Assembly: GCF_009914755.1 (NCBI RefSeq)
Contig: NC_060931.1
Length of the DNA: 64,000 bases
Origin: the human T2T-CHM13v2.0 reference genome, Homo sapiens
Reading direction: 5' to 3' (one strand)
The stretch's first letter is position 1; the number at the start of each line of letters is the position of its first letter. Below the pieces are notes generated by a model. The model was not told where the DNA came from. It saw only the letters and a program-made list of their open reading frames with translations, and did no database searches. The position numbers were made by a program, and so were the translations under genes. Below are positions 48,061 to 53,331 of this stretch, in pieces.

Positions 48061-49022
48061 ACACTTGATTCTTCATCACATCCCTGCCTGATTAAGAAAT
48101 TCAGACTAAAATCTTTTACAAAAGCAAATATCAAAATATAAAATTGTGGTTTATAGAGGGTTATCTAGAAGACTGATGAACAGTAATCTGGAGAGGAAAG
48201 ATGCCTTTTTTTGATCCGTTCAACAAACTTTGTATCTTTGAAATTAAAATAAATTGTATTGCAAAGATTAAGGCTTATCACAACAACCACATTTGAACTC
48301 TTTCTGAAGCATCAATCTTCTTGGCTGCAATCATATCAGATACTCTACAAAGAACACAGCTACTAGAGAATACTGAGATAAATAACAAATTTAAATTAAG
48401 ACAAAACAAAACAAACAACCATTAAATAACACCAAACAACATGAATGTTTAAGGGTTATAATATTGACAGAACTAATTTATCCAATCACAAATGAGATTT
48501 GGGCTTTCCACATACTGAATAGTGTTCCAGAAGCCAAGGAGAATAATGTTCCAGAAGTCACTTAAATCTAAGGTAGTCCAGTTTTTTAAAAATTGCTTTA
48601 AAGATACATCCACACACAGACACATAAACACACACAGAGTCATGGCTTGCTTTTTTTTTTTTTTAAGTTTCATTAAAGAAACCTTAGAGAACACAGATGT
48701 TAGTGGAAAATGTCATCCAAAACTCCAAGGACAACTACATATACATTTGATTTTCAGTTCATTATTCTGGATGCAAATAGTGTTTTATTTTTATTTATTT
48801 GTATTTTAGTTTAGTTTTGTTTTGTCTGAAATAGAGTCTTGCTCTGTCACCCCAGGCTGGAGTACAGTGGCACAATCACAGCTCACTGCAACCTCCGCCT
48901 CCGGGGTTCAAGCGATTCTGCTGCCTCAGCCTCCCAAGTAGCTGGGATTACAGGGGCATGCCACCATGTCCGGCTAATTTTTGTATTTTTAGTAGTAGAG
49001 ACAGGGTTTCACCATGTTGGCC
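48061..49022 (+). repeat. Long inverted repeat, left arm (962 bp; includes a truncated antisense AluS at ~48790-49022)
   Basis: Reverse complement of 52372-53331; about 5 substitutions and 2 small indels by eye. Confidence 0.95.
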
Positions 49023-49121
49023 TCAAGAAATAAAATGTAAACAAAAACTTAAAAATCAACAGCCTGGGAAAATACTCATAGCAAATATGATAGGCAAACA
49101 GTGAATATTATTATATAATTA
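49018..49121 (-). repeat. Inverted templated copy of 47904-48020
   Basis: The reverse complement reads TAATTATATAATAATATTCACTGTTTGCCTATCATATTTGCTAT...TTTCTTGAGGCCA, matching 47904-48020 with a short deletion and about 4 differences. Confidence 0.9.
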
Positions 49122-50050
49122 GTAATTTGTTTTCCTCCTTTTCCTCTTCGTTGGTATTACTAGGAGATTACAAATTTTATTGATGTTTTCAAAGAGTCAA
49201 CTTTTGGTTTGATTGATTTTTCTCTATTTTCCTGTTTTCAATTTCATTGATTTCATCTTCTTTATTAGTTCTAATTTTGGATTTATTTTACCTTTTTTCT
49301 AGTTTCTTGAGGCAGGAGTTTGTATTATTGATTTGAGACCTTTTTCTAATAACAAAGTTTTTCTTCTAAAAACACAATGTTATTAAATTCCTTCTTAACT
49401 GCTGCGTTGGTTGCATCTCACAGATTTTGATTTTGTATTTTCATTTTCACTCAATTCAAAATCAAAGAGAAATTTCTCAGAGATCCTTTGTGATCCCTTG
49501 ATTATTTAAAAATGTACTAATTTTCAAAGGTTTAGAAAATTTCCTAATTTGATTCCATTATGATCAAAGAACAATTTTTTTTTTTTTTTGAGACGGAGTC
49601 TCCTTCTGTCTCCCAGGCTGGAGTGCAGTGGCGCAATCTCAGCTCACTGCAACCTCCCCATCCCCCGCCCCCAGGTTCAAGCTTCCTGCTTCACCTACCA
49701 CCACGTGTGGCTAATTTTTGTATTTTTATAGAGATGGGGTTTCACCATGTTGGCCAGTCTGGTCTTGAACTCCTGACCTCAAGTGATCAGCCTGCCTCGG
49801 CCTCCCAAAGTGCTGGGATTACAGGCATGAGCCACTGTGCCCAGCCAAAGAACATACTTTGTATTATTTCAATTCTTTTACATTTATAAGGTTTGTTTTG
49901 TGACCCAGAACATGGTCTATATTGGATAATGTTCCATGTGTAGTTGAGCAGAATTTGTATTGTTTTTGCTTGGTGGAGTGCTCTGTAGATGTCAATTAGA
50001 TCCTTAGTTTATGGTAGTGGTCACTGTTTATATATCCCTGCTGATTTTAC
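49118..50050 (-). mobile_element. L1M ORF2 fragment (antisense), interrupted by an Alu
   Basis: Reverse complement ...CTTTGAAAACATCAATAAAAT...CAAATTACTAAT is homologous to L1 ORF2 (compare 10420-10500 in this window). Confidence 0.75.
49574..49846 (-). mobile_element. AluS with internal deletion
   Basis: Antisense Alu missing part of the right arm; TSD AAAGAACA. Confidence 0.88.
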
Positions 50051-50594
50051 CTAGGGCATCTAAGGAGAGATATTGACAGTTATTTCTAGCTAGGTACTGA
50101 TTGGAAGGTAGGCATTCAATAAAGTACCTGAAATATCTTTCTGTTGACGATGGAGGGATGAGGTTTTGTTTAAATTCATGTTTTTAAAGTATAATGTCAT
50201 ATCAACAGTATCACAGTTAGAAAGTCAGGAAAAAAGGAAAAATGGTGCCCAGAAGAACAGATGGACAATGTATTTTCTTTCCATTGGCTCTGAGCAATTT
50301 TTTGTGGTAGCCAAAGCAGACACAGAGTGAGACTTAGGAAAGGAAAACTAATTCTCATTTTTAATAGTAAGGTATTTTCCTTCCCCCTTTTGTGAGAGAC
50401 ACAAAAAAGAAGACTTTTGATTCTAAATTTCCATGAAGCTTTGAAGAACAAGAAAGATGAACATGTCCTGAGAAGTGCCTTAGACTTGAAATATAAAGAT
50501 TCAGCTAAAGGAGTTTACTTAAGCCTGAGGCTATTCTATGCATAGTTTATGTGATGGTATCAATTAAGAACTAGTCAGAAAAATACAAATTTTA

Positions 50595-50891
50595 GGATGG
50601 GCACGGTGGCTCACGCCTGTAATCCCAGCACTTTGGGATGCCGAGGCGGGTGGATCACGACGTCAGGAGATCGAGACCATCCTGGCTAACATGGTGAAAC
50701 CCCATATCTATTAAAAATACAGAAAAATTAGCCAGGCGTGGTTGCACACGCCTGTAGTCCCAGCTACTCAGGAGGCTGAGGCAGGAGAATCACTTGAACC
50801 TGGAAGGCGGAGGTTGCAGTGAGCCGAGATTGCACCACTGCACTCCAGCCTGAGCGACAGAGCAAGACTCCGTCTCAAAACAAACAAACAA
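50595..50891 (+). mobile_element. Alu (Sc/Y-like)
   Basis: GAGATCGAGACCATCCTGGCTAAC diagnostic; TSD ACAAATTTTA. Confidence 0.9.
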
Positions 50892-51487
50892 ATTTTAACC
50901 TGTGTTTGTTTTCTGTAATACCTGAACTCCTTAAGATTATCTCTACATGTTCTTCCGGGTGCTTCTTCTCCCTATCCCGATCAAAAGAATAATACCCTAT
51001 TATGAAAATAATAACTAATAACTTACATGTAGTTGTTTATGGTCTACAAAACGTGCTTCATGCATATTGCCTTACTTGCTCCATACAACCCTACTTGGTT
51101 AGCAACACAGGTTTTTTAATCTTCACTGTTGGAGTCTCAGAAAAGTTTAGTGATTTTTCTTGGGTCATAGAATTGAGCATAATTAAAGCACAGGTGTTCT
51201 CATTTCTAGTTCTGTATTCTTTCTATCATGTAATATTTGGCCTCTGAAAAGATGTACCTGTTTTCTCTAAAATTTTTGTAAGAAATAACTTTTAATTGAA
51301 ATATATTTTTACATATTTTAAAGATGTTTCAGTGAATATTTACTATTTCATTTTATGTAAAGATTAATTTCAAAGATTATTAAAAAGGTTTAATAGGTTT
51401 TCAAATATAGACTTATGGTTATTCTGTTACATGAACGTGTTATTTAATAGGCTTTGGTTATCTTCCCATTTAAAACTATAAACTCTT

Positions 51488-51786
51488 GGCCAGGCAAAGT
51501 GGCTCACGCCTGTAATCCCAGCACTTTGGGAGGCCGAGGCGGGTGGATCACCTTAGGTCAGGAGTTCGAGACTAGCCTGGCCAAAATGGTGAAACCCTGT
51601 CTCTACAAAAAATACAAAAATTAGCTGGGCATGGTGGTAGATGCCTGTAATCCCAGCTACTCAGGAGGCTGAGACAGGAGAATCGCTTGAACCTGGGAGG
51701 CGGAGGTTGCAGTGAGCCAGGATTGTGCCATTGCACTCCAGCCTGGGCGACAAGAGTGAAACTCCGTCTCAAAAAAAAAAAAAAAA
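51488..51786 (+). mobile_element. AluS
   Basis: Full-length Alu with poly(A); TSD-like CTATAAA(C/T)TCTT. Confidence 0.92.
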
Positions 51787-52330
51787 TCTATAAATTCTTT
51801 ATGTGTTTTTGATGATGATGCCTTTCTCTATTTCATTTGATAAATATACCTCCTCCATTCTCTTTTTCTTTTTCTTTTATTTTTACTATTAGAAAAAAAT
51901 AGATAATTGGTGGTAAAATATTTTTTGTAATTCATTCATTCTTTAAAGGTTAAGAAATTATTTTTAGTTGGAATAAGCATTGTATTCATTAATTTTGTTT
52001 AAATTATTGGTTTTATATATTGTGAGCTTTTATTTATAATTTTTCTATTTGTCTAATTATATTTAGGCTATCACATATTAAAATCTTAAAATTTTAAGCC
52101 CACATTATTATGTTCTCTGTTCTCTATAAGCCATTTGCGTTTCTGTGCAAATACCACGACTTTAAAATTTTTGCCTTATAATTTTATTTTACTGTGTTTT
52201 CAATTATATTACACCTTATTAGCAACACTCTGCAACTGTATGTGAAAAATTGTCTTTAAAATATTTTTCTTCAAAGACATGTTTCATCATCAGATCTCTA
52301 CTTAAATATGATTAAAGTATTCCAAATACA

Positions 52331-52605
52331 GGCAGGCAGATCACCTGAGTTCAGGAGTTCAAGACCAACCTGGCCAACATGGTGAAACCCTGTCTCTACT
52401 AAAAATACAAAAATTAGCTGGACATGGTGGCATGCTCCTGTAATCCCAGCTACTTGGGAGGCTGAGGCAGCAGAATCGCTTGAACCCCGGAGGCGGAGGT
52501 TGCAGTGAGCTGTGATTGTGCCACTGTACTCCAGCCTGGGGTGACAGAGCAAGACTCTATTTCAGACAAAACAAAACTAAACTAAAATACAAATAAATAA
52601 AAATA
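52331..52605 (+). mobile_element. 5'-truncated AluS, mostly inside the right inverted-repeat arm
   Basis: Starts at GGCAGGCAGATCACCTGAG and extends 41 bp further 5' than its copy in the left arm. Confidence 0.88.
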
Positions 52606-53331
52606 AAACACTATTTGCATCCAGAATAATGAACTGAAAATCAAATGTATATGTAGTTGTCCTTGGAGTTTTGGATGACATTTTCCACTAACTTCTGTGT
52701 TCTCTAAGGTTTCTTTAATGAAACTTAAAAAAAAAAAAAAAGCAAGCCATGACTCTGTGTGTGTTTATGTGTCTGTGTGTGGATGTATCTTTAAAGCAAT
52801 TTTTAAAAAACTGGACTACCTTAGATTTAAGTGACTTCTGGAACATTATTCTCCTTGGCTTCTGGAACACTATTCAGTATGTGGAAAGCCCAAATCTCAT
52901 TTGTGATTGGATAAATTAGTTCTGTCAATATTATAACCCTTAAACATTCATGTTGTTTGGTGTTATTTAATGGTTGTTTGTTTTGTTTTGTCTTAATTTA
53001 AATTTGTTATTTATCTCAGTATTCTCTAGTAGCTGTGTTCTTTGTAGAGTATCTGATATGATTGCAGCCAAGAAGATTGATGCTTCAGAAAGAGTTCAAA
53101 TGTGGTTGTTGTGATAAGCCTTAATCTTTGCAATACAATTTATTTTAATTTCAAAGATACAAAGTTTGTTGAACGGATCAAAAAAAGGCATCTTTCCTCT
53201 CCAGATTACTGTTCATCAGTCTTCTAGATAACCCTCTATAAACCACACTTTTATATTTTGATATTTGCTTTTGTAAAAGATTTTAGTCTGAATTTCTTAA
53301 TCAGGCAGGGATGTGATGAAGAATTAAGTGT
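52372..53331 (-). repeat. Long inverted repeat, right arm (960 bp)
   Basis: Reverse complement of 48061-49022; ORFs 48839-49033(+) and 52298-52552(-) give nearly the same peptide. Confidence 0.95.

What the first reader, a model, noticed from the sequence alone, without database searches (positions are those of the whole stretch)
48061..53331. ~960-bp, ~99% identical inverted arms: candidate recurrent polymorphic inversion of the 3.35-kb spacer
Seen: the arms differ by only about 5 substitutions, a 3-bp indel (AGTAGTAG vs AGTAG) and one base of a T-run, and about 730 bp of each arm is non-Alu sequence, so this is a true local duplication. Established: near-identical inverted repeats of this size mediate NAHR inversions and gene conversion. 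Inference: 49023-52371 may flip between haplotypes, and short-read variant calls inside the arms may be paralogous variants.
Basis: partly seen in the sequence, partly recalled or inferred. Interest (0 to 1): 0.7.

Follow-up and report, generated by a model that had tools for sequence, protein, structure and literature searches.

The report
Known, non-flipping COG5 intron inverted repeat
This is a real 960-base mirror-image duplication in an intron of COG5, already catalogued as HsInv0064; published genotypes show the same orientation in everyone tested, so it is not a common flip, and the opposite orientation in the older GRCh38 reference is likely an assembly error or a very rare allele.

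Summary
In detail: arms 48061-49022 and 52372-53331 are 99.07% identical (5 substitutions, a 1-bp and a 3-bp indel), and the non-Alu part occurs only twice in CHM13. The locus is InvFEST HsInv0064: its 520-bp breakpoint blocks and 4063-bp gap match exactly. The "recurrent polymorphism" reading fails. Nanopore genotypes: 53 of 54 samples called, all in the CHM13 orientation, listed as not polymorphic. Strand-seq: 233 of 236 reads agree. Only GRCh37/38 shows the other orientation.

Detail not found in the papers searched: a second ~103-bp inverted copy (47904-48020 at 49018-49121) joined by TGGCC microhomology, and an old L1 cut in register between 49121 and 53332-53335. This points to template-switching repair as the origin, and shows that the CHM13 spacer is flipped relative to the pre-duplication order. 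The short copy is 3-5% diverged against 0.5% for the arms, which hints at gene conversion. Deep intronic, no function evident. Already known; low interest.

The parts
48061..49022 (+). Left arm (D), 962 bp: about 714-754 bp single-locus sequence plus the 3' part of an antisense Alu, cut at TGGCC. Its outer end is inferred to be the native one.
52372..53331 (-). Right arm (inverted copy of D), 960 bp. Its Alu continues into the spacer (52327-52371); its outer end abuts the L1 break.
48145..48664 (+). 520-bp perfect block = HsInv0064 breakpoint 1 (hg38 chr7:107418108-107418627)
   Evidence: constant offset 1,316,037
52728..53247 (-). 520-bp perfect block = HsInv0064 breakpoint 2 (hg38 chr7:107422691-107423210)
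49023..52371 (.). 3349-bp spacer, oppositely oriented in GRCh38; holds the short copy B', an old L1 piece and three Alus; no annotated exon
   Evidence: annotation given with the finding
47901..48020 (+). Donor segment B, 40 bp outside the left arm; contains a local 18-bp tandem (47931-47970)
49018..49124 (-). B': inverted copy of B (about 103 bp core 49019-49121); 5 substitutions in 103 columns plus 12-bp and 1-bp gaps
49018..49022 (+). TGGCC, 5-bp microhomology shared by the Alu path and the B path (junction J1)
49121..50030 (-). Decayed L1 ORF2 piece (ORF2p residues about 180-218 and 327-389), interrupted by an Alu at about 49574-49846 with an AAAGAACA target-site duplication; ends at the B' junction (J2)
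   Evidence: E 0.11-0.27, weak; E 0.008
53332..53860 (+). Continuation of the same L1 on the opposite strand, starting at the right arm's outer end (J3); ORF2p residues about 451-575 from about 53460
   Evidence: (E 1.7e-7)

Best explanation
This is the catalogued inverted repeat HsInv0064 in a COG5 intron, oriented as in CHM13 in every published genotype found, so GRCh38's opposite orientation is likely a mis-join in the 520-bp perfect block, and the duplication likely arose by template-switching repair at a break in an old L1. Shown: arms, identity with HsInv0064, the extra copy B', the TGGCC microhomology and the L1 split in register. From papers: monomorphic genotypes. Inferred: the pre-duplication order was B-C-D-E-F, with the spacer E in the GRCh38 direction. 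Repair synthesis at the E|F break copied B (about 103 bp), switched at TGGCC to the other strand, copied D backwards for 960 bp and rejoined F. The spacer came to lie reversed either in that same event or by one later NAHR flip that is now fixed or nearly so. Gene conversion has probably kept the arms alike since. No function is expected.
For: Coordinates identical to HsInv0064 and to the npInv entry, IR 961, size 5271, NA12878 homozygous inverted vs hg19 and validated. 53 of 54 ONT samples called, all O2; 95% upper bound on O1 about 3% for 95 chromosomes after removing 5 trio children, trios recalled. Strand-seq 233 of 236 reads; the 1.3% minority lies within the 0.8-5.2% seen in the 7 'miso' regions displayed. 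No row at chr7:10873xxxx in the 44-sample T2T inversion table (all 3 hits of '10873' accounted for). Published GRCh38 spacer limits fit swapped inner arm parts (356/358 bp) exactly, so the switch lies outward of the T-run, in or beyond the perfect block. L1 register: in-window L1 10490/10497; 8 of 15 L1 rulers put 53332 within 6 nt of 49121. B vs B' 5/103 against arms 5/959, Fisher p=0.0013, or p=0.033 after dropping 2 substitutions beside the indel. Arm differences crowd toward the ends, P=0.018.
Against: Porubsky 2023 labels the site 'GRCh38.minor', not 'GRCh38.miso', and 3/236 also equals one heterozygote among 82 haplotypes. Two previously validated reference errors turned out to be rare inversions (HsInv0057, HsInv1119). 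No paper read states that HsInv0064 is an assembly error; the two papers that might (Vicente-Salvador 2017, Porubsky 2022) were not held. 7 of 15 L1 rulers did not give the register (offsets +23 to -350), only 2 of 15 beat all 200 shuffles for the short right piece, and the rulers are related to one another. Microhomologies at J2 and J3 are only 1-5 nt and imperfect. No ape sequence could be examined, so age and order of events are inference.
Confidence: 0.65

Rival explanations
1. GRCh38's orientation is a real but rare allele (under about 3%), made by NAHR in the 520-bp block or left over from the pre-flip state.
For: 'GRCh38.minor' label and 3 of 236 discordant reads; precedent of HsInv0057 and HsInv1119; O1 is the L1-collinear order; NAHR inversions with IRs from 654 bp do segregate.
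Against: 0 O1 among 53 called ONT samples; discordant read share within the noise of 'miso' rows; no T2T callset row.
Confidence: 0.25
2. One reading: a common, recurrently toggling inversion polymorphism.
For: Suitable substrate: 99% arms, 520-bp perfect block, 3.35-kb spacer; most NAHR inversions in Giner-Delgado 2019 recur (passages).
Against:: one orientation only in all genotyped people.
Confidence: 0.02
3. Origin sub-rival (not exclusive of the best explanation): duplication and inversion arose in one step (inversion with an inverted duplication at a staggered or template-switched break, B' as filler), so O1 with two arms never existed in the population.
For: The same three junctions explain both routes; only O2 has been seen in people.
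Against: Leaving and re-entering at the same L1 site with no loss is simplest for a templated insertion into one break; signs of arm homogenisation imply later arm-to-arm recombination.
Confidence: 0.45
4. Age sub-rival: the duplication is recent (0.5% arm divergence, 95% CI 0.17-1.2%), and B' differs from B because template-switch synthesis is error-prone, not because the arms were converted.
For: Few differences, wide intervals (B' 1.6-11%); 2 of 5 B' substitutions sit beside the 12-bp indel; one arm difference is at a CpG; error-prone synthesis near such junctions is recalled knowledge.
Against: Contrast stays at p=0.033 on the conservative count; end-crowding persists without T-run and CpG, P=0.012; the 12-bp difference lies in a tandem found in the donor B.
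Confidence: 0.35

Closest known systems
InvFEST HsInv0064 (PMC13629690 Tables S1, S3); chr7:107418983-107422332 in PMC10150506 Table S4; hg19 chr7:107058553-107063655 in PMC6044046 supplement
   Same: The same locus: breakpoint blocks, gap, IR length and total size all match.
   Different: The rows and passages seen give orientation only; none mentions B', the TGGCC junction or the split L1.
Small IR-mediated polymorphic inversions such as HsInv0040 (755-bp IR, 3.6 kb) and HsInv0061 (654-bp IR, 1.7 kb)
   Same: Similar IR and spacer sizes.
   Different: Those are listed as polymorphic; HsInv0064 is not.
MMBIR/FoSTeS complex rearrangements (Hastings et al. 2009, PMC2621351)
   Same: Discontinuous and inverted duplicated pieces from nearby templates, 2-5 bp microhomology.
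   Different: Here a small, apparently fixed germline event of about 1 kb; polymerase-theta templated insertion or staggered-break repair (recalled) cannot be told apart from sequence alone.

Membership tests
InvFEST region HsInv0064 | Breakpoint blocks of 520 bp, 4063 bp apart, on chr7 | tested here: met
   all four coordinates map with one offset
Polymorphic NAHR inversion | Over 90% identical inverted repeats at both breakpoints | tested here: met
   99.07% over 963 columns
Polymorphic NAHR inversion | Orientation switch lies within the repeats | tested here: met
   GRCh38 limits fit swapped inner arm parts; from published coordinates, GRCh38 sequence itself not available
Polymorphic NAHR inversion | Both orientations found in living people | tested here: not met
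   Published tables only: 0 O1 in 53 called samples; 3 of 236 reads
Polymorphic NAHR inversion | Recurrence on independent haplotypes | not testable with these tools
   No population haplotypes; no O1 carriers known
GRCh38 misorientation (Porubsky 2023: all 41 samples homozygous inverted) | All samples opposite to GRCh38 | tested here: inconclusive
   Labelled GRCh38.minor there, yet all-O2 in the ONT study
Segmental duplication (1 kb or more, 90% or more) | Length of at least 1 kb | tested here: not met
   962/960 bp; typed 'IR', not 'SD',
MMBIR/FoSTeS-type rearrangement | 2-5 bp microhomology at junctions | tested here: inconclusive
   J1 has 5 bp; J2 and J3 have 1-5 nt, imperfect
MMBIR/FoSTeS-type rearrangement | Several discontinuous copied segments, some inverted, from nearby templates | tested here: met
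   B' and the second arm, each with a single nearby donor

The most novel reading that the evidence does not exclude
The duplication predates the great-ape radiation, gene conversion has held the arms at 99% ever since, and humans are fixed for a derived flip, with GRCh38 preserving (or re-creating) the ancestral order. The unconverted 103-bp side copy would then be a built-in clock for conversion between 1-kb inverted repeats, and the arms would also form a 960-bp near-perfect duplex in COG5 pre-mRNA.
Probability: 0.3. Interest if true: 0.3.

Novelty: already known. Interest (0 to 1): 0.12.

Why it matters
Practically: against GRCh37/38 nearly everyone would be called homozygous for a 3-5 kb COG5 'inversion', which should be filtered out; reads inside the arms map ambiguously (inference). 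Biologically it is a neat but ordinary example of how a small inverted repeat is born, and a reminder that a good NAHR substrate need not be polymorphic. The nearest COG5 exon is 5.4 kb away, so no effect on the gene is expected.

Tried and rejected
Paper searches: 'HsInv0064' in main texts, 0 papers; COG5 + inversion + inverted repeats + polymorphic, 0; COG5 + ADAR + dsRNA + inverted + editing, 0; COG5 + intronic + homozygous + inversion, 1 paper, unrelated on reading passages; some searches gave listings only used as leads. Supplements: Giner-Delgado 2019, no hit in 12 of 18 files, 6 not searched; gibbon Strand-seq, no relevant hit, one file not searched and one cut; 1,019-genome study, no hit but file cut when stored, so uninformative. 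PMC12485790 main text does not mention the site. Vicente-Salvador 2017, Porubsky 2022 and Porubsky 2020 were not held, so the InvFEST validation status, per-sample Strand-seq genotypes and ape orientation stay open. Protein-level test of the first codons after 53332 found nothing relevant; the register rests on DNA alignments. B', the arm end and the left flank do not align to the in-window L1 above shuffles. Rejected: Alu-Alu chance pair (arm is mostly non-Alu and 99%); dispersed segmental duplication; CHM13 assembly artefact (same IR recorded in hg19/hg38).

Full report
Observation. The spacer is 3349 bp. The first 540 bp of the arm match only these two places in CHM13, so this is a local duplication and not an Alu pair.

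Identity with a known locus. The longest perfect block is 520 bp (48145-48664 / 52728-53247), 4063 bp apart. Table S1 of PMC13629690 (supplement rows and named sections read) lists HsInv0064 with 520-bp breakpoints and size 4063; all four coordinates map with one offset, 1,316,037. The npInv supplement (PMC6044046, one row and passages seen) lists it in hg19 with IR 961 and size 5271, NA12878 homozygous inverted and validated. PMC10150506 Table S4 gives T2T chr7:108735022-108738372, which is window 49022-52372.

Does it flip? Not in the data found. In the nanopore study hg38 is O1, CHM13 is O2, 52 diploid samples are O2/O2 and 1 of 54 is uncalled; the site is marked not polymorphic. For about 95 independent chromosomes (trio children removed, trios recalled) the 95% bound on O1 is 3.1%. 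Pooled Strand-seq from 41 unrelated people has 233 of 236 reads in the CHM13 direction, and the T2T inversion table has no row here (all 3 hits of '10873' accounted for). The two studies share 12 samples. Against a plain assembly error: that paper labels the site 'GRCh38.minor', 3/236 equals one heterozygote in 82 haplotypes although it is also within the 0.8-5.2% seen in the 7 misoriented regions displayed, and two former 'errors' proved to be rare inversions. The published GRCh38 spacer limits equal those predicted if the inner arm parts are swapped (49020 and 52369). So GRCh38 differs by a switch outward of the T-run, in or beyond the perfect block, where both an assembly mis-join and an NAHR crossover would fall. 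Papers that may state the validation status were not held, and some supplements were cut or unsearched.

Anatomy beyond the finding. (i) 49018-49124 is an inverted copy (B') of 47901-48020 (B); each has only the other as partner in CHM13. (ii) The left arm's Alu stops at 49022 and B' begins at 49018; the 5 shared bases TGGCC belong to both paths. The Alu's natural continuation lies at the other end of the spacer (52371-52327). (iii) The spacer holds a decayed L1 ORF2 piece on the minus strand whose match ends at ORF2p residue 389, position 49125 (weak: E 0.11-0.27; upstream piece E 0.008). L1 resumes on the plus strand beyond the right arm (residues 451-575, E 1.7e-7). With an L1 inside the window as ruler the pieces end and start at 10490 and 10497 (0 and 1 of 300 shuffles reach the scores). 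With 14 further L1-like loci from CHM13, 8 of 15 rulers place 53332 within 6 nt of 49121, five of them at -3; the other 7 give +23 to -350, and the short right piece beats all 200 shuffles in only 2 of 15. The rulers are related, so this is one family-level signal. The L1 was cut with no loss.

Mechanism (inferred). Before the event the order was B-C-D-E-F, with spacer E in the GRCh38 direction. In that direction the change is a pure insertion of B plus reversed D at the E|F break, with short microhomologies. This fits the MMBIR model (complex inverted duplications, 2-5 bp microhomology; PMC2621351, passages). People carry E reversed, so either one NAHR flip followed and spread, or duplication and inversion were a single event. 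The same junctions serve both routes, and only ape genomes can decide.

Age and homogenisation (inferred). B and B' differ at 5 of 103 columns plus two gaps; the arms at 5 of 959 (p=0.0013; p=0.033 without the two substitutions beside the 12-bp gap). Arm differences lie nearer the ends than chance (P=0.018 for all 7; 0.012 without T-run and CpG), and a 520-bp perfect run has P=0.033. These tests were chosen after seeing the data. They suggest an older duplication kept alike by conversion; error-prone synthesis of B' in a recent event is the alternative.

Comparison and verdict. It works like the substrate of small NAHR inversions such as HsInv0040 and HsInv0061 but fails the defining test of polymorphism in the data seen. 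It is under the 1-kb size used for segmental duplications. No exon lies in or within 5.3 kb of it. The arms would pair in COG5 pre-mRNA whichever way the spacer points (inference; no paper found). The junction anatomy was not found in print by searches, which cover open-access main texts only. Already known; interest 0.12.

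Noticed in passing
window 45748-46077: 38-bp VNTR, 7.7 copies, (TA/TG/CA)-rich and self-complementary (76-80% palindromic), 2 kb left of the arm; likely length-variable.
   Followed up: no
window 9800-11250: Younger L1 ORF2 fragment on the plus strand with frameshifts and stops; used as a ruler.
   Followed up: partly
window 16072-16307 and 20893-21142: 83% identical direct pair of about 250 bp; the second copy begins exactly at the RefSeq enhancer 20893-21415. Probably two copies of one interspersed repeat family; family not identified.
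   Followed up: no
window 19201-19389: 94-bp tandem duplication, 2.0 copies, 98% match.
   Followed up: no
window 49566-49854: Antisense Alu inserted in the spacer's L1, with an AAAGAACA target-site duplication and an internally shortened body.
   Followed up: partly
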